64,000 bases of DNA from Candidatus Nomurabacteria bacterium (GCA_943348755.1 CALQYS010000001.1:69963-133962); one strand, 5' to 3'; shown: positions 22,210-60,412, counted from the first letter of the stretch. A program made the numbers and translations. The notes: generated from the letters alone by a model not told the origin.

Positions 22210-22731
22210 TTATTTATTCTGAAGATATTGCTTGTATCCAACTTTTGAAAGCTTCTCCCCCTTCGTCTCTATCTCTTTGCTCATCTTTTCTTTGTAAGCG
22301 ATCAATTTTCTCTCTAAATCTTTATCAGACAAGGCGAGCATCTGTACAGCCAAAATACCAGCGTTTTTACCTCCATTTATCCCAACGGTGGCGACAGGCA
22401 CCCCGGGAGGCATCCCCACTGTAGAGAGGAGTGAATCAAGTCCGTCTAGACTTTTGGTTTTTATTGGAATTCCTATTACAGGTAGAGTAGTGAGTGAAGA
22501 TACTACACCAGCCAAATGAGCTGCTCCCCCTGCACCCGCAATAATTATTTTTAATCCACGATCTTTTACATTAGTTACATATTTATGCACGATCTCGGGA
22601 GAGCGATGCGCCGAAGCGACTGTGATCTCATAAGACACTCCGAACTCTTCCAGCACTTTCGCTGCCTCAGACATCACTTCTAGATCTGAATCCGAACCCA
22701 TGAGTATGGAAACCTTTGTGTCTTTTTTCAT
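22210..22731 (-). CDS. purE: PurE (N5-CAIR mutase / AIR carboxylase family)
   Basis: VSILMGSDSDLEVM...ASAHRSPE conserved PurE motifs; 173 aa. Confidence 0.9.
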   Translation of the reverse strand: MKKDTKVSILMGSDSDLEVMSEAAKVLEEFGVSYEITVASAHRSPEIVHKYVTNVKDRGLKIIIAGAGGAAHLAGVVSSLTTLPVIGIPIKTKSLDGLDSLLSTVGMPPGVPVATVGINGGKNAGILAVQMLALSDKDLERKLIAYKEKMSKEIETKGEKLSKVGYKQYLQNK

Positions 22732-22777
22732 TTGCTCTATCTTATCATTTTTTTAATTTAAAACAACCTAAAAACTA

Positions 22778-22826
22778 GCTTAAAACGAAAAGGACCCTGC
22801 ATCGCGCGATGCGCGCAATGCAGGGT
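22778..22826 (-). terminator. Intrinsic terminator (GC-rich hairpin plus U-tract) after the high-GC ORF
   Basis: Hairpin CCCTGCATCGCGCG-at-GCGCGCAATGCAGGG (14-bp stem, one mismatch) followed on the minus strand by UCCUUUUCGUUUUAAG. Confidence 0.5.
22781..22794. repeat. Direct repeat copy 1: TAAAACGAAAAGGA (identical 14-mer at 23765-23778)
   Basis: Exact 14/14 identity between the U-tract regions of the two terminators flanking the high-GC block. Confidence 0.7.
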
Positions 22827-22897
22827 ATCCTTGGTCGATCAGACGATTTCTCGTCCGGCCCAGAATCTACGTCTGAGCTCGGTGATGTGAGGCAGGC

Positions 22898-23566
22898 TTA
22901 CGCCGCCTGCAATGTGCCCTCACCACGGCTGGCCGGCTGGGGTTCGGTGGGCGCGTAGCCTTGTTCGGCGGTGCCGGGATCACCAGCAGGTCCAGCGGGC
23001 AGCTGATCGGCGTCACCAGGTTTGGCGGTCACAGTGGTGTTCTCAGCGCCGAGTTCTTCGCGGAGCTGCGGCGTAGCGGCCGGCTTCAAGAAATGCCTCG
23101 CCGCCAGTTCGTGGAACTTCGTCGCATCAATGAGCGGGTTGATGGCCGCCGCGTGAGTGATGCCGGTCAAGTTGAGGCTAAATTCTGCCTCGATGCCTGC
23201 GATCGTGGGGGCGTCGAATTCATAGCCTCCCGCGAATGCGTTCCATTTTCCGCGCTCAGTCACGTCGTCGAGTAAGTTGCCTTCTTGGCCCCGGATCCAC
23301 GCCAGGAACTCCGGAAACGACGGCAGGTGGTCGAGCGAGGTGATCCACTGGTTCAGGGCTTCACGCTTCACGTTCAAGCCCCGGGTCTTGTCCTGGTAGC
23401 CCTCGAGGATGAGCAGGTCGAACCCGTCACCGCGGCCCCATTCGTCAACCGTGGCCTTGATCATCTCGATCAGGATCTTCTGCCACAGGCGCAGGAGGTG
23501 GGCCCAACCAGTGAACACATCGGCAAAGCCAGACGGATGCAGCGGGAGTAGTTGTAGTGTTTTCAT
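22898..23566 (-). CDS. Hypothetical protein encoded in a high-GC (about 62%) block, with a Pro/Ala/Gly-rich C-terminal tail
   Basis: 222-aa ORF, the longest in an abrupt GC jump. It has its own promoter and terminator. No family recognised. Low-complexity tail (PGDADQLPAGPAGDPGTAEQGYAPTEPQPASRGEG) is typical of high-GC taxa. Confidence 0.5.
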   Translation of the reverse strand: MKTLQLLPLHPSGFADVFTGWAHLLRLWQKILIEMIKATVDEWGRGDGFDLLILEGYQDKTRGLNVKREALNQWITSLDHLPSFPEFLAWIRGQEGNLLDDVTERGKWNAFAGGYEFDAPTIAGIEAEFSLNLTGITHAAAINPLIDATKFHELAARHFLKPAATPQLREELGAENTTVTAKPGDADQLPAGPAGDPGTAEQGYAPTEPQPASRGEGTLQAA

Positions 23567-23723
23567 GCGTTTGTTTTTGTTGTATGTTTCTGATGACCAT
23601 CACGCGAACCTAAGTGGGTCCGTTTGTTGTGTGACAGTCAGCCAAATTACGATGTATTTACATGCATAATCTCGCCGACTGCCACAAATTTCACATCAAT
23701 TTTAAAGAACAAATAACTACGTT

Positions 23724-23751
23724 ATATTACATTTTTTTGCTATTTTGTCAA
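23724..23751 (-). promoter_or_regulatory. Sigma70-like promoter TTGACA-16-TAATAT oriented toward the high-GC ORF
   Basis: Minus strand reads TTGACAaaatagcaaaaaaatgTAATAT; ORF start about 150 nt downstream. Confidence 0.4.
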
Positions 23752-23764
23752 TATTGGATGGGTC

Positions 23765-23778
23765 TAAAACGAAAAGGA
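23765..23778. repeat. Direct repeat copy 2: TAAAACGAAAAGGA
   Basis: Identical to 22781-22794. Confidence 0.7.
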
Positions 23779-23807
23779 GCCGGCATACGATTAGAACGTA
23801 GTCCGGC
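23765..23807 (-). terminator. Intrinsic terminator after the small-peptide micro-operon
   Basis: Hairpin GCCGGcaTACG-attagaa-CGTAgtCCGGC followed on the minus strand by UCCUUUUCGUUUUAG. Confidence 0.45.
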
Positions 23808-23852
23808 TTCTCCTTGAGAGTTAATTAGTAACCCCCACAACTGTTTCTCGGT

Positions 23853-24026
23853 TCACGCCGAGTACATGTTCAGGAACAAGACGAGAATGCCCGTTCCTAG
23901 ATACACCAAACCTAAACCCATCCCAGTCACGAGGACTGGGAAGAGGATGGGGTGTTTCCTCCACCACAGGCGAAGCGCATACAAATGCAGCGTCTCGTCG
24001 ACCATCAACATTAGTTCTTCTTTCAT
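23853..24026 (-). CDS. Small hydrophobic peptide 3 (57 aa)
   Basis: Hand-translated: MKEELMLMVDETLHLYALRLWWRKHPILFPVLVTGMGLGLVYLGTGILVLFLNMYSA. One TM. Below the 60-aa ORF-track cutoff. Confidence 0.35.
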   Translation of the reverse strand: MKEELMLMVDETLHLYALRLWWRKHPILFPVLVTGMGLGLVYLGTGILVLFLNMYSA

Positions 24027-24038
24027 AGCTTTCGTGGG

Positions 24039-24143
24039 TTAATTTTTAATCACCTCCAACAATGCCAGGAATACGATTCCGGCAAATGCCAGCCCCAAGA
24101 GTAAGGGGCACCAAAACCCATATCGACGGATTATTTTTTCCAT
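24039..24143 (-). CDS. Small hydrophobic peptide 2 (34 aa)
   Basis: MEKIIRRYGFWCPLLLGLAFAGIVFLALLEVIKN; one TM; 12 nt upstream of peptide 3. Confidence 0.3.
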   Translation of the reverse strand: MEKIIRRYGFWCPLLLGLAFAGIVFLALLEVIKN

Positions 24144-24164
24144 ATTCTCCTTTTGGTTGTTGAG

Positions 24165-24263
24165 TTACCAGTGATTCTTAAGCCACACCGTTCCTGCTAT
24201 CAAGAGAACAAGCAGGACGAGACCAATTGTATGAGGAAGTGCAAACTCCTTGAATTGTTTCAT
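24165..24263 (-). CDS. Small hydrophobic peptide 1 (32 aa)
   Basis: MKQFKEFALPHTIGLVLLVLLIAGTVWLKNHW; one TM; first gene after the promoter at 24385-24413. Confidence 0.3.
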   Translation of the reverse strand: MKQFKEFALPHTIGLVLLVLLIAGTVWLKNHW

Positions 24264-24384
24264 TGTGAGTGCATTGTTTTGTTTTTTTAGTTTAGCTACG
24301 GAATACAAATTACAAAAAAATAAGCTGTATTCCACAGCCAAACACAACGTGAACCAAATTTTTAAAGAACCATCTTACCCTTGT

Positions 24385-24413
24385 ATTATATACTTTTTTA
24401 AGCCAAAAGTCAA
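24385..24413 (-). promoter_or_regulatory. Consensus-like sigma70 promoter TTGACT-17-TATAAT driving the small-peptide micro-operon
   Basis: Minus strand reads TTGACTtttggcttaaaaaagtaTATAAT, starting 15 nt downstream of the purH stop. The roughly 115-nt leader contains an 8-bp stem-loop (24300-24333). Confidence 0.45.
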
Positions 24414-24427
24414 TAGAACCTTAAATC

Positions 24428-25975
24428 TTAATGCTTAAAATGTCTAAATCCAGTAGCCACCATCGCCATATTGTAGGTATTCGCCATATCTATGGATGCT
24501 TGGTCGTTCTTTGAGCCTCCGGGCTGGATGACAGCCGTGACGCCCATCTTGCCTGCTAGCTCTACGCAGTCTGGAAATGGAAAGAACGCCTCAGAGGAAA
24601 GCACTGAGCCGTTGAGCGAGAACCCAAACTTCCCTGCTTTATCTATAGCTTGCTTGAGCGCATCAATTCGAGAAGTCTGTCCACAACCCATGGCAAGCAG
24701 TGTGCCGTCTTTGACGAGGGCGACAGAGTTCGACTTTAAATGTTTTGTAGCAATGGCTGCGATGAGTAAATCCTTTTTCTCGGACTCTGTCGGCGCGCGC
24801 TTGGTCGTTACTTTCAGGTCTCCTTCAGTCTCTACATGAGTGTCTCTATCTTGAATAAGTAATCCATTAAAACAAGTACGGACTTGTCTGTTCGGGAACA
24901 TAGGATTCTTCCCCGCCTGCACCAGCTGTGCTGAAGGCATTGCGGGCAGGCATTTTAGAATCCTGCAATCCTTTTTCTCCATTAATATATCGAGAGCACC
25001 TTTTTCAAAGTCTGGAGCAATGATGACTTCGATAAAAAGCTTTTGCTTTTTAATTAGTTTTGCTATATCTTCGGTTATTGTCCTGTTCCCTGCCAATATT
25101 CCACCGAAAGCCGACAATGGGTCTGCATTATAAGCTGCCTTGTATGCTTCAAAAAGTTTGCCTTCGGGTCGCACCGCCAGACCGCATGCATTCATGTGCT
25201 TGATAATGACGAAAGCTGGATCTGTAAAATCACTTACTGCAAGTATTGCTGCTTCTGTGTCTATTAAATTATTAAAAGAAAGTTCTTTGCCATGAAGCTG
25301 GGTGAAGCTCTCAGCGAGACTGCCGACGAATTCTGCTTTTTGGTGCGGGTTCTCTCCGTAGCGGAGCTCGGTGCCTTGGAAGTATCCGCGGATAGCGCTG
25401 TCGTAATGGCTTGTCACTTCAAATGCGTTACCAGCAAACTTCTTGCGCTCTTCTAGGGTTGTCTCATTTCCCTTTTTTAAAATGTCAGCTAGTTCTGCGT
25501 ATTGATTCTTGGAAGGTATAACCACTACGTCATTGAAATTCTTCGCGGCCGCACGAATTAGAGATATTCCGCCGATGTCTATCTTCTCTATTATCTCCTC
25601 TTCTGTTCCGCCCTGATTGTTTCTTTTGGCCAGAGTTTCTTCAAATGGATATAGGTCCACTATCACGAGGTCTATGTCTTCGATCTTGTGTTTAGCCTTT
25701 TCTTTTTGATCGTCTGTATTGTCTCGGCGATTTAAAATCCCACCAAAGATTTGTGGTTGAAGCGTCTTTACCCTTCCACCAAAAAGCGCTGGATAGTTAG
25801 TAATGGATTCGACTTCAGTGACAGACACACCTAATTTACGAATAAATTCTGCCGTCCCACCAGTCGAAATGATTTTGACGTCCTGTTTAGCGAGGAGCTT
25901 TACTATCTCGTCCAGCCCGTCTTTATTAAAAACCGAAATCAGCGCTGAGTTAATCTTCTTTTTCATTGAGGGCAT
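24428..25975 (-). CDS. purH: Bifunctional AICAR transformylase / IMP cyclohydrolase
   Basis: N-terminal MGS-like IMPCH domain (ALISVFNKDGL...ISTGGTA) and C-terminal AICARFT domain; 515 aa. Confidence 0.95.
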   Translation of the reverse strand: MPSMKKKINSALISVFNKDGLDEIVKLLAKQDVKIISTGGTAEFIRKLGVSVTEVESITNYPALFGGRVKTLQPQIFGGILNRRDNTDDQKEKAKHKIEDIDLVIVDLYPFEETLAKRNNQGGTEEEIIEKIDIGGISLIRAAAKNFNDVVVIPSKNQYAELADILKKGNETTLEERKKFAGNAFEVTSHYDSAIRGYFQGTELRYGENPHQKAEFVGSLAESFTQLHGKELSFNNLIDTEAAILAVSDFTDPAFVIIKHMNACGLAVRPEGKLFEAYKAAYNADPLSAFGGILAGNRTITEDIAKLIKKQKLFIEVIIAPDFEKGALDILMEKKDCRILKCLPAMPSAQLVQAGKNPMFPNRQVRTCFNGLLIQDRDTHVETEGDLKVTTKRAPTESEKKDLLIAAIATKHLKSNSVALVKDGTLLAMGCGQTSRIDALKQAIDKAGKFGFSLNGSVLSSEAFFPFPDCVELAGKMGVTAVIQPGGSKNDQASIDMANTYNMAMVATGFRHFKH

Positions 25976-35887: not shown

Positions 35888-37555
35888 TCAATACACCTCT
35901 TGCTGGTAACATTTCTCGCAGTAAATTTGGTATATTTTCTGATCCTCGGGTCTATAAGATGTTTGTATCAGATTACCACATTTAGCACAATTTCCACTCC
36001 ATAAGTCACGCGGGTTTCTTTTACTCATTCTGGCTTCATGTCGGCAGTTAAAGCACTTAGCTGGCAGGGCTAATCTATTCTTTTTATAAAAATTCACCTC
36101 TCTATTTATTAATCTGTAATTTTTCTCGCAATTTTTACAAGTTAGAATTTCATTAACTAATGCATCGCTGTATTCTTCAGGATTTTTAGGTAAATTTTCG
36201 TATTCTATTGTCCCCTGTCCAGTTGTGCTTGGTATATTATCTTTCCATTTAAAACCTTGCCTCGTAGCTTCCTCTTTTGTAATTGGCATGTACTCATTTA
36301 CTATCGCTTCATTATAAGCAAATGGGCTAATAAATGCTGGAAAGAATTTACCCCAGTCTCCACTTTCTTTCATCTGCGCGATTATTTTTTCTTTTAGCGT
36401 AAAGTATTCTTCCTTTGAATATTGTTTATTTAAAATACAGTAAGATTTCTTGCGTAGACCATAACATCCAAAAACTTCATTACAGTTGTGACAATTATTT
36501 GAGTAATAAATATTATGGCAATCTACTATCATCTCAGAGGCTATGGCTATGTTGCTGTTGCTTATAGTCATAGCCTGATAACATTCAGATAGATCGCTGG
36601 TGAAAGAAATATCATACGAATCTATGGCTTCTCTAACTGTAAAGCAATGCCTAGAGTTTTCACCGCTTTTTATATCAAAGGAATCATGTACATTGTGTGC
36701 ATTATATATATGGTTACCAGAAACATCATTATTGTGAGAGCCAAAGAAAGAGCGCTGAGGAGTTATTTTACGTAAACTCTCCATCTCTTTTAAAATATAT
36801 TCGATAGAAGACTTTTCATTTAGGGGGTGTTCTAATAAGAATTTTTTGTATTCTTCTTTTGTAACTTGTTTATTGAAAATATGATAGGACTTGTTTACTT
36901 GCCCCACGCATCCGATGCAATTCAAACAGTTTCGACAATCAAAAAGTCCAATGGAGTCTACACAAGCTTCACATTCTTGTGAATAGAAAAGTTTCGCTGA
37001 GCCTAGGCAATCAACACAGTCGTAACAAGATTCTGATTTAAATAAATATAAATTATCAATAGAATCTCGGCAATTCCAAACTATGTGTCCATAATCGCAG
37101 TCTTCGTTCTCAAGAGCACCAAAAAGTAAATAGCAATTTTTACAGTCAATTATTTGATTAGTGTAATCGCAATTAACACTTCTAACGGCATTACGAGCCG
37201 GATGTGGTACAGCGTTAAAAAGAAGAGCGAGTTGCTTAAAAAATGACTTACTTAGATCAACATCTACAGCATAATCCATGGGTTCCCAGCTATCCCCCCA
37301 CCAGATCTCATTATCATAAACTGGGAATTTTGTATCTTCGTTGTACATCGAGATGATCATTTTACCGGATTTACTGCAGGGTCTTTTGTATAAAGTCTTA
37401 AAATTCCTAAAGGATGCACGAAGTTGCTGACGACATTGTGGGCACTGTTCCGGGGCAGGTATTCCCATCTTTTCATAAAAGCCAAAATCATCCGGCTCGA
37501 TGACGAAATCTTCGTTGCACTTTTTACATATTCGATTTTCGCTCTTGTGTTCCAT
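35888..37555 (-). CDS. Cysteine-rich protein, paralog B
   Basis: 555 aa. N-terminus CKKCNEDFVIEPDDFGFYEKMGIPAPEQCPQCRQQLR; C-terminus ...CFNCRHEARMSKRNP...YCEKCYQQEVY. Same architecture as paralogs A and C; third N-terminal zinc ribbon is degenerate. Confidence 0.75.
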   Translation of the reverse strand: MEHKSENRICKKCNEDFVIEPDDFGFYEKMGIPAPEQCPQCRQQLRASFRNFKTLYKRPCSKSGKMIISMYNEDTKFPVYDNEIWWGDSWEPMDYAVDVDLSKSFFKQLALLFNAVPHPARNAVRSVNCDYTNQIIDCKNCYLLFGALENEDCDYGHIVWNCRDSIDNLYLFKSESCYDCVDCLGSAKLFYSQECEACVDSIGLFDCRNCLNCIGCVGQVNKSYHIFNKQVTKEEYKKFLLEHPLNEKSSIEYILKEMESLRKITPQRSFFGSHNNDVSGNHIYNAHNVHDSFDIKSGENSRHCFTVREAIDSYDISFTSDLSECYQAMTISNSNIAIASEMIVDCHNIYYSNNCHNCNEVFGCYGLRKKSYCILNKQYSKEEYFTLKEKIIAQMKESGDWGKFFPAFISPFAYNEAIVNEYMPITKEEATRQGFKWKDNIPSTTGQGTIEYENLPKNPEEYSDALVNEILTCKNCEKNYRLINREVNFYKKNRLALPAKCFNCRHEARMSKRNPRDLWSGNCAKCGNLIQTSYRPEDQKIYQIYCEKCYQQEVY

Positions 37556-37602
37556 TTCTATTTTACTTTATTTAAATAAATTACTTTACTAAACTAAAGT
37601 AG

Positions 37603-39264
37603 CTAGTATATCTCCTGTTGATAACATTTCTCACAGTATACTATTTCTGGACGATCTGGCGAATAGCTTGTTTCGAATTCATTCATACAGTCTTGATTCA
37701 TGCATTTTTGATGCCAAAGCTTTCTTTCACCAGCAAGTTTTATTCTCTTTTCATGTCTACAATTTGGACATTTTCGTGGTATAGGCAAGCCCATCTTTCG
37801 GTAAAGATTGAGCTCGTAAGGCACTATTTTGTAATTTTTTCCACATTCACAAACCAAAACCTCTTTCATTATTTCGTCTTTTACATCATCTATGTTGTCT
37901 GGCAAAAGATCCATATCTACGGTTTCCTGCTTGTATGTGTTTGTATTTTTTTCCCACCAAGGTAGAGAAAGTTTTTCACAATCCTCCTTTGTTAATGGAA
38001 AATATTCTTGAGCTACTGTCTCATTATATCCAAAATTACTTATACCGATCGGGAAAAATTCTCCCCATTCGCCAGTTTTTTTCATATGTTCTATTATTTT
38101 ATTTTTAAGGATGAGATATTCTTCTTTGGAATATTGTTTGTTTAAAATACAATATTTCTTTTTTGACATGCCTATACAACCGAATAAATCAGAAGAATTG
38201 TTGCATTTATCGCAATACCAAATGTCATTCGAGTAATGTGAGGCATTGCAGAAGCCGGAGCTGCCTAAATTCAAAGTGCTTATTAGTTCGATATTAAAAG
38301 ATGGTTTATATAAGGAAAAATCTAGGTCATAACATTCTTTCGCGTCCAATACATCGCATAGATATTTTCCATTTTCAGCATTACTGACATCGAAACTCTC
38401 TTTTACATTCTTACAATTAAAAAGATCATCTCCTGTGCAGTTCGTACTATTTATTAGATTAGCGAACTTCGTAATCGCTTTTTTGGAATACTTCCCGAAT
38501 TCTTTTTTCAGATTTTCTAAAGCAGAAAAAGATTTTTTATTAAAGCCCGAAACAATTTTATTGTATTCTTCCCTGCTGTATGGTTTATTAAAAATATGGT
38601 ATGACTTATTTCTCAAGTTCCAGCACCCAAAACAATCGGTACAACTCCTACAATCATACATAAAATGACAATTGCTGCAGTCCGTGCACTTATTTAGAAA
38701 AGATGAGCCGTAGATTTTATGGCAATTCACGCATTCGTAATTTAATTCAGAATTGTAAACAAAAGAGCAATCTATGCAGTCCTTGGAGTATTTAATAAAT
38801 TTACAAAAGTAGCAATATTCGTTTTTCTCTCCAGCTATATCAAAGTAACAATAATTATCATCTCCGCAATAGCTTACATAATCGCTATTTTTACAATTTA
38901 CGATGTCCAGTGAAAGTGTCGGGACTTTTTTATAAAGATCTTTAAATTGTTCAAAAAATGGCTTGGAAAAATTAAAATCTTTCCCATACGAAAGCGGGTT
39001 AGACTTATCGCTCCACCAGCAGGATGGACACCAGACGGCTTGCTCCTTATCTCCATGATAATATGAAATTATTTTTTGATTACATGAATTACAATTACGC
39101 CAGTAAAAAACCCTTTCGTTTCTGATGGCGAGTCTGCGCTGATGCCGGCATTCTGGGCAAAATGTCGGTGGTGGGACTTTTATTTTTTCATAAAATCCAA
39201 AATCATCCGGTTCGATCACGAATTCCTTTTTACAATTCTGGCAAATTTTATTTTCCGCTTTCAT
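37603..39264 (-). CDS. Cysteine-rich protein, paralog C
   Basis: 553 aa. N-terminus CQNCKKEFVIEPDDFGFYEKIKVPPPTFCPECRHQRR is near-identical to paralog A. Start codon overlaps the purL stop (TAATG). Confidence 0.75.
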   Translation of the reverse strand: MKAENKICQNCKKEFVIEPDDFGFYEKIKVPPPTFCPECRHQRRLAIRNERVFYWRNCNSCNQKIISYYHGDKEQAVWCPSCWWSDKSNPLSYGKDFNFSKPFFEQFKDLYKKVPTLSLDIVNCKNSDYVSYCGDDNYCYFDIAGEKNEYCYFCKFIKYSKDCIDCSFVYNSELNYECVNCHKIYGSSFLNKCTDCSNCHFMYDCRSCTDCFGCWNLRNKSYHIFNKPYSREEYNKIVSGFNKKSFSALENLKKEFGKYSKKAITKFANLINSTNCTGDDLFNCKNVKESFDVSNAENGKYLCDVLDAKECYDLDFSLYKPSFNIELISTLNLGSSGFCNASHYSNDIWYCDKCNNSSDLFGCIGMSKKKYCILNKQYSKEEYLILKNKIIEHMKKTGEWGEFFPIGISNFGYNETVAQEYFPLTKEDCEKLSLPWWEKNTNTYKQETVDMDLLPDNIDDVKDEIMKEVLVCECGKNYKIVPYELNLYRKMGLPIPRKCPNCRHEKRIKLAGERKLWHQKCMNQDCMNEFETSYSPDRPEIVYCEKCYQQEIY

Positions 39265-58948: not shown

Positions 58949-60412
58949 ATGTCTATACCAAATGTCGATATTTTAACCCAGGGAGCTACCAGGAAAGACA
59001 AAGAGCTTATAGAAAAAGCTTATAATTTTGCTGAACGTGCGCATGAAGGGCAAAAAAGAGAGAGTGGTGATCCACATTTTTATCACGTTTTCGAAACAGC
59101 AAAGATACTAACTTCACTTAAAATGGATGCTAAGACTGTCGCTGGCGGTCTTCTACACGATGTTTTAGAGGATACTTCAATAACTGAAAAGGAGCTTGAA
59201 AAAGAATTTGGCCCCGAAGTGCTTTTCTTAGTAAACGGGGTGACTAATTTGGGAACTTTAAAATACATAGGACACCAGAGACATGTAGAGAGTTTAAGAA
59301 AATTCTTTGTCGCGATGTCTAATGACCTACGTGTGGTCATAATTAAATTTGCCGATCGATTACACAATCTGCAAACACTGCAGTTTTTACGAGAAGATAA
59401 AAGGAAAAGGATCGCGATAGAATCCATCGAGGTTTATGCACCGCTTGCCAACAGGCTTGGTATGTGGAAACTAAAAAGCGAGATAGAAGAGGCTGCCTTT
59501 CCTTTTGCTTTTCCAAAAGAGTGTGCACAAATGGAAGAGATAGTGAAAGAAAAAAAGGATTCATATGAGAAAAACCTCTCCAAAGTAAAAAGGGAACTTG
59601 AAAAAGAATTTGCAAAAAATAAGAATAAAGTAATAGAAATAAACTATCGAGTAAAAAATAATTACAGTTTATGGAGAAAACTCGTTAAACGTGAAATGGA
59701 TATTGAAAAAGTGTACGACGTGGTGGCGTTGCGTATTATTGTAGAAAATGTTGAGGAATGTTATAGAGTTCTGGGCCTTATTCATTCTCTATGGAAACCT
59801 TTGCCCGGTAGAATTAAAGATTATATTGCAATCCCGAAACCCAATGGATATCGTTCCATTCACACTACCATCTTTACTGGTGGCGGGGGAATTGCAGAAA
59901 TTCAAATAAAAACCAGGGAAATGCACGCAGAATCGCTAAATGGTATAGCGGCTCATTTTGCTTATAAAGAGCAAAGCGGTAAAAGGAATTACGATGAAAA
60001 ATTAAAATTCAAATGGCTAGAAGAGTTAAAAGGTTTGAATTATAGTTCTAATGAATCAAGAAAATTTTTAGAAAATCTAAAAATGGACTTTTTTAATGAT
60101 CGCATTTTTATTTTTACCCCAGAGGGAGATATCGTAGATTTACCAGAAGATTCGACTCCAATAGATTTTGCCTACGCTATTCACTCAGACGTTGGAGATC
60201 ACATATTTGGCGTAAAAATAAACGGTAAAATGTCTAAAATTTTCTCAAAACTGAAAAATAGAGACATTGTGGAAATAATAAAAAAGCCTGATGCCCACCC
60301 GTCTTCGAAGTGGTTAGACTATGCGAAAACGACCATTGCCAGAAAGAATATAAGGTCATATTTGGAACAAAATAGTCTATATGGAAAGCTGAGGTCTTTT
60401 GGTAAATCCTAA
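58949..60412 (+). CDS. RelA/SpoT-homolog (HD hydrolase + synthetase + TGS; C-terminal regulatory domains absent)
   Basis: HD motif (HDVLEDT), synthetase motif (RIKDYIAIPKPNGYRSIHTTI), TGS-like segment; 487 aa versus about 730 for long RSHs. Confidence 0.85.
   Translation: MSIPNVDILTQGATRKDKELIEKAYNFAERAHEGQKRESGDPHFYHVFETAKILTSLKMDAKTVAGGLLHDVLEDTSITEKELEKEFGPEVLFLVNGVTNLGTLKYIGHQRHVESLRKFFVAMSNDLRVVIIKFADRLHNLQTLQFLREDKRKRIAIESIEVYAPLANRLGMWKLKSEIEEAAFPFAFPKECAQMEEIVKEKKDSYEKNLSKVKRELEKEFAKNKNKVIEINYRVKNNYSLWRKLVKREMDIEKVYDVVALRIIVENVEECYRVLGLIHSLWKPLPGRIKDYIAIPKPNGYRSIHTTIFTGGGGIAEIQIKTREMHAESLNGIAAHFAYKEQSGKRNYDEKLKFKWLEELKGLNYSSNESRKFLENLKMDFFNDRIFIFTPEGDIVDLPEDSTPIDFAYAIHSDVGDHIFGVKINGKMSKIFSKLKNRDIVEIIKKPDAHPSSKWLDYAKTTIARKNIRSYLEQNSLYGKLRSFGKS

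What the first reader, a model, noticed from the sequence alone, without database searches (positions are those of the whole stretch)
22778..23807. Two different terminator hairpins share an identical 14-nt tail (TAAAACGAAAAGGA), bracketing the high-GC cassette
The terminator after the high-GC ORF and the terminator after the small-peptide operon have unrelated stems (CCCTGCATCGCGCG... versus GCCGGCATACG...). Both are followed by exactly the same 14-nt sequence, forming 984-bp-spaced direct repeats that flank the cassette. This looks like a target-site duplication or recombination footprint: the cassette appears to have landed in the U-tract of a pre-existing terminator.
Basis: seen in the sequence. 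Interest (0 to 1): 0.5.

Follow-up and report, generated by a model that had tools for sequence, protein, structure and literature searches.

The report
Short repeat flanking an acquired gene cassette
A foreign, self-contained gene sits between two purine-synthesis genes of an ultra-small (Nomurabacteria) bacterium and is bracketed by an identical 14-base terminator tail, most likely a scar of its insertion; it is a tidy but fairly ordinary case of horizontal gene transfer.

Summary
TAAAACGAAAAGGA occurs exactly twice in the window (22781-22794 and 23765-23778). Each copy is the U-tract tail, read on the minus strand, of a different intrinsic-terminator hairpin.

The two copies bracket a 970-bp unit:
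- a sigma70-like promoter
- a strongly folded 155-nt leader
- a 222-aa ORF with GC3 of 0.74, a distant DUF5069 relative
- a 15-bp GC hairpin

The host is a 39%-GC Nomurabacteria (CPR) chromosome carrying a purine operon. In relatives, purH abuts purE directly in three loci. In three others the gap holds unrelated orphan genes. The site is therefore an insertion hot spot.

The tail is not a common motif: no other copy lies next to a hairpin in 83 kb. Among about 63,000 pairs of T-rich tails, in-register matches of 14 or more were otherwise seen only in homologous DNA.

The stems are not wholly unrelated. The repeat runs 20/22 into the hairpin arm. Both hairpins carry a CAAGGA box, and both tails lie 26 nt upstream of a similar -10 region.

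I found no transposase, no integrase and no real terminal inverted repeats, and the other occupied loci have no such repeats.

Best reading: an insertion or crossover footprint at a resident terminator (confidence about 0.45). The main rival is a duplicated terminator module. Interest is modest.

The parts
22781..22794 (-). Repeat copy 1. It is the U-tract tail TCCTTTTCGTTTTA of terminator T1, which follows the high-GC ORF. The purE promoter lies immediately downstream.
   Evidence: Exact match; terminator scan; fold.
23765..23778 (-). Repeat copy 2. It is the identical tail of terminator T2, which follows the small-peptide operon. The cassette promoter lies immediately downstream.
   Evidence: Exact match; fold. 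The junction is identical in two other assemblies.
22794..22826 (-). Hairpin 1: a 15-bp GC-rich stem (one G-T pair) with a 3-nt loop. It is preceded by a CAAGGA box at 22828-22833 that can pair with TCCTT of the tail.
   Evidence: (I2).
23779..23811 (-). Hairpin 2: an 11-bp stem with a 2x2 internal loop and a 7-nt loop. It is preceded by a CAAGGA box at 23811-23816. Its tail-proximal arm is 8/10 identical (one indel, aligned by eye) to that of hairpin 1.
   Evidence: (D1, I8).
22898..23566 (-). Cargo ORF of 222 aa, GC 62%, GC3 0.74. It is a distant DUF5069-like all-alpha protein with a disordered Pro/Ala/Gly-rich C-terminal tail. No Shine-Dalgarno sequence is visible upstream.
23724..23751 (-). 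Predicted cassette promoter, TTGACA-16-TAATAT, with the A7-TG motif also seen at the purE promoter.
   Evidence: Consensus scan; collinear similarity to the purE -10 region (D5, 64). No expression data.
23630..23686 (-). Long, near-perfect stem-loop in the cassette's 5' leader (23567-23723). The whole leader folds at -51.9 kcal/mol, z = -5.5. Several G-U pairs exist only on the sense strand.
   Evidence: No Rfam family matched.
22739..22766 (-). purE promoter, TTGTTT-16-TAAGAT with an A7-TG motif. It is conserved in all purH-purE relatives and marks the right-hand limit of ancestral DNA.
23853..24263 (-). Three small hydrophobic peptide genes (32, 34 and 57 aa) upstream of T2. They are also absent from relatives. 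The 57-aa gene has GC3 of 0.69 and is an orphan.
24428..25975 (-). purH, the conserved left flank of the variable gap.
22210..22731 (-). purE, the conserved right flank of the variable gap.

Best explanation
The repeat is a footprint of the event that placed a foreign, self-contained transcription unit into a recurrent insertion hot spot between purH and purE of a Nomurabacteria chromosome.

Before the event (inferred), the small-peptide operon ended in hairpin 2 plus the tail TCCTTTTCGTTTTA, which ran straight into the purE promoter. The incoming 970-bp unit carried a promoter, a structured leader, a DUF5069-like ORF and hairpin 1. It was joined at that tail, and the tail ended up on both sides of the insert.

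Two routes could do this:
- A single crossover at a short stretch shared by the resident terminator and a related terminator on the incoming DNA. I favour this because the similarity leaks into the stem and the CAAGGA box.
- Repair of a staggered break, giving a true target-site duplication.

The outcome is that both the peptide operon and the new gene have a working hairpin-plus-U-tract terminator, and purE keeps its own promoter.

Shown: the repeat, the two hairpins, the foreign composition, and the empty and variable state of the site in relatives. Inferred: the order of events, the joining mechanism and the enzyme.
For: - Exact 14/14 repeat in the same register after two hairpins; the only two copies in the window.
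- Absent from a further 19 kb or so of the same genome.
- Empirical null: in-register matches of 14 or more between T-rich tails were otherwise seen only in homologous DNA.
- The bracketed unit is foreign. GC is 0.62 and GC3 0.74 against 0.39-0.46 for host genes. Database relatives are 36% identical or less.
- Identity drops to random (5/26) immediately on the promoter side of both copies.
- purH abuts purE in L084, L167 and L168. L082, L083 and L170 carry other orphan units with their own promoters and terminators in the same gap.
- The left junction is identical in two other assemblies, and the locus is also present in a Logan assembly.
- The closest cargo homologue (L177) is likewise a GC-richer ORF in AT-rich flanks, with a TTGACA promoter and a hairpin plus T-tail. 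This suggests the gene family travels as a ready-made unit.
Against: - No transposase, integrase or recombinase in the 64-kb window or its extensions.
- Terminal inverted repeats are limited to GACCC/GGGTC, and only if the repeat is read as 12 nt.
- 14 bp is an unusual TSD length.
- Other occupied gaps show no flanking repeats.
- No empty-site allele of this exact arrangement is available.
- Similarity outside the 14-mer is not predicted by a TSD of unrelated DNA: 20/22 into the stem, CAAGGA boxes, and -10 regions at the same 26-nt distance.
- Only 83 kb of the genome could be searched.
Confidence: 0.45

Rival explanations
1. T1 and T2 are paralogous copies of one terminator(-promoter) module of about 55-65 nt: a CAAGGA box, a hairpin, the tail, then a promoter 26 nt later. 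The duplication happened in this lineage or in the donor, independently of the ORF's arrival. The stems then drifted with compensatory changes while the tail was kept intact.
For: - The repeat extends 20/22 into the proximal arm. Both differences are compensated in the distal arms (read).
- CAAGGA lies 32-33 nt upstream of both tails, and the box-plus-tail pattern matches only at these two sites in the window.
- The -10 regions are collinear at spacing 985 (D5; p about 0.02).
- The 57-aa peptide gene also has high GC3 (0.69), so both units might share a source.
Against: - The 26 nt between the tail and the A7-TG box are unrelated (5/26). The loops and stem lengths also differ, yet the tail is 14/14. 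Neutral drift that changed about 30% of the stem would rarely leave 14/14 intact.
- Several separate steps are needed while the ORF remains un-ameliorated.
- Local alignment of the hairpin sides alone is not significant (p about 0.4).
Confidence: 0.25
2. The 14-mer is a sequence-specific functional element kept identical by selection. It lies at about -62 to -49 of both downstream promoters, so it could be a UP-element-like or protein-binding site, or an optimal termination tract. On this reading it is not a scar of any rearrangement.
For: - Both copies lie 13-14 nt upstream of a -35 hexamer and 26 nt upstream of an A7-TG extended -10.
- T-runs interrupted by C/G are common in terminator tails of relatives: TTTTTCGTTTTT in L082 and TTTTCTGTTTTA in L083.
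Against: - No other promoter or terminator in 83 kb carries it, including the other pur and gua promoters.
- The purE promoters of L084, L167 and L168 lack it, so purE does not need it.
- Independent origin of 14 identical bases is very unlikely.
Confidence: 0.12
3. Coincidence: two unrelated U-tracts happen to match.
For: - Exact 14-mers are frequent in this AT-rich window, with about 35 repeated pairs.
- Terminator tails are low-complexity.
Against: The empirical rate of in-register matches of 14 or more between non-homologous T-rich tails is about 1e-4 per pair or lower. The extra similarities described above add to this.
Confidence: 0.05
4. Assembly chimera: high-GC DNA from another organism was joined in at a short repeat.
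For: There is an abrupt GC change.
Against: - The left junction is 100% identical in two other ENA assemblies, L165 and L166.
- The whole locus is present in Logan, ENA and NCBI contigs of 86-186 kb.
- From general knowledge, a 14-nt repeat cannot bridge a k=141 assembly graph.
Confidence: 0.02

Closest known systems
Phage 'morons' (autonomous promoter-ORF-terminator units inserted between two genes; concept of Hendrix and Juhala, cited from my own knowledge)
   Same: A single ORF with its own predicted promoter and a strong factor-independent terminator. Its base composition differs from its neighbours. It lies between two genes that are adjacent in relatives.
   Different: It sits on a bacterial chromosome, inside a purine operon, not in a phage. 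Morons are not defined by flanking direct repeats.
Flexible genomic islets or insertion hot spots between conserved core genes; horizontal transfer in Patescibacteria (PMC12455944)
   Same: Conserved flanks (purH and purE) with content that differs between relatives. The cargo genes are orphans. Horizontal transfer is reported as widespread in Patescibacteria, with up to 13% of genome length attributed to it.
   Different: That paper describes islands and single-gene transfers in general, not this locus and not terminator-tail repeats.
Target-site duplications of IS elements, MITEs and mobile insertion cassettes
   Same: A short exact direct repeat flanks a discrete insert.
   Different: There are no terminal inverted repeats beyond 5 bp, no transposase, no other copies, and 14 bp is atypical.
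Integron gene cassettes and attC sites (including integrase-less CALIN clusters)
   Same: The unit is about 1 kb and ends in an imperfect hairpin. The outer boxes (AAGGA/TCCTT) are conserved and pair with each other, while the inner stem varies. Two such sites lie in the same orientation.
   Different: There are no RYYYAAC/GTTRRRY core sites and no intI in the window. The cassette carries its own promoter. Only two sites exist. The hairpins look like ordinary terminators.
Campbell-type integration at a short shared core (att sites), or recombination at short homology
   Same: It produces direct repeats of the shared segment on both sides of the insert.
   Different: No integrase is present, and the target is neither a tRNA nor dif. 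The circular intermediate is hypothetical.
Casposons
   Same: TSD length of 14-15 bp.
   Different: There is no Cas1, no polymerase and no TIRs, and the insert is only 970 bp.

Membership tests
Intrinsic (factor-independent) terminator | GC-rich stem-loop directly followed by a U-rich tract, downstream of a stop codon | tested here: met
   T1 has a 15-bp stem (about -24 kcal/mol for the hairpin; -34.9 kcal/mol for the 71-nt region) with z = -5.8. T2 has an 11-bp stem with an internal loop and z = -2.6. Both are followed by UCCUUUUCGUUUUA. Function itself was not measured.
Transposable element with TSD (IS, MITE or mobile insertion cassette) | Terminal inverted repeats at the insert ends | tested here: not met
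   Only GACCC...GGGTC (5 bp), and only if the repeat is read as 12 nt. The inverted-repeat scan found nothing at the ends.
Transposable element with TSD (IS, MITE or mobile insertion cassette) | A transposase in the element, or further copies of the element or its ends in the genome | tested here: not met
   No transposase or integrase domains among the genes of the window and its extensions. The insert ends and the promoter/leader have no other copy in the window or related loci. Only 83 kb of the genome was searched.
Transposable element with TSD (IS, MITE or mobile insertion cassette) | Short direct repeat of target DNA flanking the insert | tested here: met
   14/14 exact repeat at 22781-22794 and 23765-23778.
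Integron cassette / attC | R'' (RYYYAAC) and R' (GTTRRRY) core sites at the ends of the hairpin | tested here: not met
   Read. The tails contain GTTTTAA and GTTTTAG, with pyrimidines at positions 4-5. No RYYYAAC lies 5' of hairpin 1.
Integron cassette / attC | An integron integrase (intI) and attI, or an array of several attC sites | tested here: not met
   No recombinase in the window. Only two box-hairpin-box sites in the window, and none in the other Nomurabacteria loci except one unexamined match in L169.
Moron-like autonomous transcription unit | Own promoter and own terminator around a single ORF | tested here: inconclusive
   A 10/12 sigma70 consensus match (TTGACA-16-TAATAT) and a strong terminator hairpin are present. 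There are no transcript data.
Moron-like autonomous transcription unit | Composition unlike the flanking genes, and flanking genes that are adjacent in relatives | tested here: met
   GC3 is 0.74 against 0.39-0.46. purH and purE are adjacent in L084, L167 and L168.
Moron-like autonomous transcription unit | Resides in a phage genome | tested here: not met
   The context is chromosomal: pur/gua genes, penicillin-binding proteins, ribosomal proteins L9 and L27. No PHROG hit. No relative in viral contigs.
Site-specific integration (att core repeats) | An integrase adjacent to the element, and a tRNA, tmRNA or dif target | tested here: not met
   No integrase was found. The nearest tRNAs are at 50.2 and 61.5 kb.
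DUF5069 (PF16798), for the cargo protein | Match to the Pfam model at its gathering score | tested here: not met
   No Pfam hit at E of 1 or less for the ORF. It is linked only through relatives that do hit DUF5069: P0002, P0124 and P0132 at 27-28 bits (cut-off 27), and P0126 below cut-off at 22 bits. The LxRLWQK, GxGFD and PxxPEFxxWI motifs are shared. I treat it as a distant relative, not a member.
Casposon | Cas1 casposase, a family B polymerase and TIRs, with a 14-15 bp TSD | tested here: not met
   Only the repeat length fits. The insert encodes a single DUF5069-like ORF.

The most novel reading that the evidence does not exclude
The hairpin plus conserved tail, with its AAGGA/TCCTT outer boxes, is the recombination site of a cassette-capture system in CPR bacteria whose enzyme acts in trans. 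Promoter-bearing gene cassettes would be inserted at the tail of resident terminators with a 12-14-bp duplication. The logic resembles attC sites but is built on intrinsic terminators. This would explain the recurrent filling of the purH-purE gap.
Probability: 0.06. Interest if true: 0.7.

Novelty: new member of a known kind. Interest (0 to 1): 0.3.

Why it matters
If the reading is right, this is a cleanly delimited recent gene acquisition in a streamlined, uncultured CPR bacterium. The insert boundaries are defined to the base, the site is empty in relatives, and the same gap is filled with different orphan units in sister lineages.

That makes purH-purE a convenient natural locus for studying how Patescibacteria take up and domesticate foreign genes. 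Two questions stand out: how new genes get promoters and terminators, and whether terminator tails are preferred joining sites.

It does not by itself reveal a new mechanism. The cargo (DUF5069-like, with a very stable leader hairpin) remains of unknown function.

Tried and rejected
- **Common terminator tail.** Rejected for the 83 kb available. No further copy with up to 1 mismatch lies next to a hairpin. The near-match at 59398 is inside a RelA/SpoT gene.
- **Empty-site allele.** The 57-aa peptide is an orphan. The only other contigs (L165, L166) carry the same filled junction.
- **Closer relatives.** The genome-contig scan with purH and the metagenome scan with purE gave nothing closer than 84% purE identity. 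Intergenic DNA is not alignable at that distance, apart from the purE promoter.
- **Flanking repeats in other occupied gaps.** None is meaningful.
- **Terminator family with the same outer boxes.** Only T1 and T2 match in the window. Among the other loci the matches were not followed up; L169 has one unexamined match.
- **Viral origin.** Four pattern hits in IMG/VR lack hairpins and are chance matches. There is no viral relative of the ORF and no PHROG hit.
- **Integron/attC, dif/IMEX, IS200/IS605-like ends, casposon.** Defining features are absent (see the membership table).
- **PurR-box or regulon motif.** The motif is not found at other pur or gua promoters.
- **Rfam.** Nothing matched for the leader or the terminators.
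- **Cargo function.** No hits in Pfam, NCBIfam, PHROGs, PDB sequences or Foldseek against PDB. No paper mentions DUF5069.
- **DNA homology of cassette flanks with L177.** Not significant.
- **blastn-short of the promoter/leader** against all local loci returned only noise.

Full report
**Observation.** The 14-mer TAAAACGAAAAGGA occurs exactly twice in the 64-kb window, at 22781-22794 and 23765-23778, 984 bp apart. The genes of this region are on the minus strand, where the repeat reads TCCTTTTCGTTTTA. It directly follows two stem-loops.
- Hairpin 1 (22826-22794) has a 15-bp GC-rich stem and a 3-nt loop. The 71-nt region around it folds at -34.9 kcal/mol with z = -5.8.
- Hairpin 2 (23811-23779) has an 11-bp stem with a 2x2 internal loop and z = -2.6.

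The description and coordinates in the finding are therefore correct.

**Is it more than chance?** An exact 14-mer repeat alone is not. The window holds about 35 independent repeated 14-mers, and nine pairs lie within 1.3 kb of each other. The informative feature is the identical register next to two terminator hairpins.
- I built an empirical null from 355 hairpin-plus-T-rich-tail sites in 14 Nomurabacteria loci, giving about 62,800 pairs. In-register exact runs of 14 or more occurred eight times. Apart from the T1/T2 pair itself, those I checked were orthologous or paralogous coding DNA. The two tails therefore share descent rather than merely both being U-tracts.
- The motif is not a common tail. 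With up to 3 mismatches, no other copy lies next to a hairpin in the window or in about 19 kb of additional sequence from the same genome (L175, L176). The 1-mismatch hit at 59398 lies inside a RelA/SpoT gene.

**Anatomy.** Read on the minus strand, the locus runs as follows:
- purH (25975-24428).
- A promoter and a leader carrying a small hairpin plus T-run.
- Three small hydrophobic peptide genes of 32, 34 and 57 aa.
- Hairpin 2 and its tail.
- A sigma70-like promoter, TTGACA-16-TAATAT (23751-23724).
- A leader of about 155 nt.
- A 222-aa ORF (23566-22898).
- A 3' UTR of about 70 nt, then hairpin 1 and its tail.
- The purE promoter and purE (22731-22210).

GC is about 0.60-0.72 across the ORF and 0.55-0.57 over the 3' UTR and hairpin 1. 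It drops sharply at the start codon and at the tail. ORF GC3 is 0.74, against 0.39-0.46 for purB, purC, purM, purE, purH and guaA. The leader folds very stably at -51.9 kcal/mol (z = -5.5), dominated by a long stem-loop at 23630-23686 whose G-U pairs exist only on the sense strand. No Rfam family matches it.

**The cargo.** The ORF has no hit in Pfam, NCBIfam, PHROGs or PDB sequences.
- In 5.8 billion proteins it finds only itself and one 31%-identical protein carrying DUF5069.
- An exhaustive HMMER search finds 15 further relatives at 32-43% identity over their matched stretches. Several score at or near the DUF5069 threshold, and some of these are named as Chloroflexota proteins.
- The motifs LxRLWQK, GxGFD and PxxPEFxxWI are shared.
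- An AlphaFold model is all-alpha (pLDDT 70, disordered C-terminal tail) with no fold match in the PDB.

It is a real gene of unknown function and a recent arrival.

The closest homologue is P0123 at 32% identity. It lies on a 1-kb contig (L177) as a 56%-GC ORF in flanks of 32-34% GC. It has a TTGACA promoter upstream and a hairpin with a TTTTTCTTTTTACC tail downstream. The gene family may therefore travel in AT-rich genomes as a ready-made unit. DNA homology of the flanks was not significant.

**Host and comparative context.** purH and purE place the window in Nomurabacteria/Paceibacterota, part of the CPR. Neighbouring genes are chromosomal: pur/gua genes, penicillin-binding proteins, and ribosomal proteins L9 and L27.

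Among relatives with 81-84% purE identity, the purH-purE gap takes two states.
- It is empty in L084 (110 nt), L167 (35 nt) and L168 (61 nt).
- It is occupied by unrelated ORFs without Pfam matches, each with its own promoter-like and hairpin/T-tail signals. L082 carries ORFs of 95, 97 and 74 aa. L083 carries a GC-richer operon of 54, 56 and 149 aa. L170 carries ORFs of 175 and 116 aa.

The purE core promoter, TTGTTTTAwATTAAAAAAATGATAAGATA, is largely conserved across the purH-purE relatives, most fully in L083. The gap is therefore a recurrent insertion hot spot, and the roughly 1.7 kb between purH and purE in the window is additional DNA.

The junction running from the peptide operon through hairpin 2, tail, promoter and leader to the ORF start is 100% identical in two other assemblies, L165 and L166. 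The whole locus appears in Logan, ENA and NCBI contigs. A chimera is excluded.

**What the repeat is.** Several features fit an insertion footprint:
- The two copies bracket exactly the self-contained foreign unit (22795-23764, 970 bp).
- They are identical, as expected for a recent event.
- Similarity falls to random (5/26) immediately on the promoter side.

On this model the pre-insertion sequence was hairpin 2, the tail, then AGCTAG... and the purE promoter. That is the same layout seen in L083 and L170, where a terminator tail runs into the purE promoter.

A plain transposase-type TSD is not supported, for these reasons:
- There is no transposase, integrase or other recombinase in the window or its extensions.
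- The only terminal inverted repeat is GACCC/GGGTC, and only if the repeat is read as 12 nt (read; one search lists no inverted repeat at the ends).
- The other occupied gaps have no flanking repeats.
- No further copies of the ends exist in the window or the related loci, and the box-hairpin-tail pattern matches only T1 and T2 in the window.

- The repeat extends to 22 nt at 20/22 identity. By eye, with one indel, it reaches 22/25 through the whole proximal arm of hairpin 2. Both differences are compensated in the distal arms.
- Both hairpins are preceded, 32-33 nt upstream of the tail, by CAAGGA, which pairs with TCCTT of the tail.
- Both tails lie 26 nt upstream of AAAAAAATG(A)TAA(G/T)ATA (p about 0.02 before counting the equal spacing).

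**Preferred explanation.** I favour a crossover or joining event at a short stretch shared by the resident terminator and a related terminator on the incoming DNA. That would duplicate the shared tail. Staggered-break repair is the less likely variant. Overall confidence is about 0.45.

**Rivals.**
- A duplicated terminator(-promoter) module that predates or is independent of the ORF (0.25). It explains the extended similarity. It fits poorly with the unrelated 26-nt block, the differing loops, and a perfect tail beside a diverged stem.
- A sequence-specific functional element kept identical by selection (0.12). It is weakened because the motif is absent from every other promoter and terminator examined, including the purE promoters of the empty-site relatives.
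- Coincidence (0.05).
- Assembly artefact (0.02).

**Comparison with known systems.** Functionally the unit behaves like a phage moron: an autonomous promoter-ORF-terminator unit of odd composition between genes that are adjacent in relatives. Here it sits in a chromosome. The locus behaves like a flexible genomic islet. Horizontal transfer into Patescibacteria genomes is documented as frequent (PMC12455944).

The variable hairpin with paired outer boxes recalls integron attC sites. The core-site consensus and the integrase are both absent, so I do not file it there. Casposons share only the 14-15-bp repeat length.

**Verdict.** This is a confirmed, non-random feature that most likely marks a recent gene insertion at a terminator in a hot spot. 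It is a neat example of a known kind of event. The mechanism is unproven, and there is a small chance that it reflects an unrecognised terminator-based cassette system.

Noticed in passing
window 18820-47000 (also L001, L175): A Nomurabacteria (CPR) chromosome carries a near-complete de novo purine pathway in one neighbourhood: purF, purQ, purL, purD, purN, purA, guaB, guaA, purH, purE, purM, purC, purB. Outside Nomurabacteria, the nearest purH relatives are Bacteroidota at 50-57% identity, which suggests an old transfer of the pathway.
   Followed up: partly
window 35888-39264 (-), with a related ~577-aa gene at about window 4.8-6.5 kb: Two tandem paralogous ORFs of 555 and 553 aa with no Pfam match sit between purQ and purL. 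Repeat families link them to another copy near 5-6 kb. This is a second lineage-specific insertion inside the purine cluster.
   Followed up: no
window 23567-23723 (-), long stem-loop at 23630-23686: The 5' leader of the cargo ORF folds very stably (-51.9 kcal/mol, z = -5.5), with G-U pairs that exist only on the sense strand. No Rfam match and no Shine-Dalgarno sequence before the ATG. It may be a regulatory RNA element of unknown type.
   Followed up: partly
window 24264-24427 (-): Directly after purH there is a strong promoter match, TTGACT-17-TATAAT (24413-24385). A small hairpin with a T-run follows (24339-24323), upstream of the first small-peptide gene. The layout looks like an attenuator or leader.
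   Followed up: no
window 23853-24263 (-): Three tandem genes encode 32-, 34- and 57-aa hydrophobic peptides, each apparently with a single transmembrane helix. The 57-aa peptide has no relative in 5.8 billion proteins other than itself and has GC3 of 0.69, so this operon is probably also acquired.
   Followed up: partly
L082 3612-5000; L083 3959-5000; L170 2842-4000: In sister Nomurabacteria the same purH-purE gap holds different orphan genes, each with promoter-like and terminator-like signals. In L083 the inserted operon is also GC-richer than its host (0.54 against 0.38). This indicates recurrent gain of foreign units at one site.
   Followed up: partly
L177 1-1022: The closest homologue of the cargo (32% identity) is a 56%-GC ORF in flanks of 32-34% GC. 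It has a TTGACA promoter, a structured leader containing ACAACAAAACAAAC (as in the window's leader) and a hairpin plus T-tail. The host is unknown.
   Followed up: partly
window 22793-22797 and 23760-23764: If the direct repeat is read as 12 nt, the insert begins with GACCC and ends with GGGTC, a perfect 5-bp terminal inverted repeat. It is too short to be convincing, but it would form a symmetric junction in a hypothetical excised circle.
   Followed up: partly
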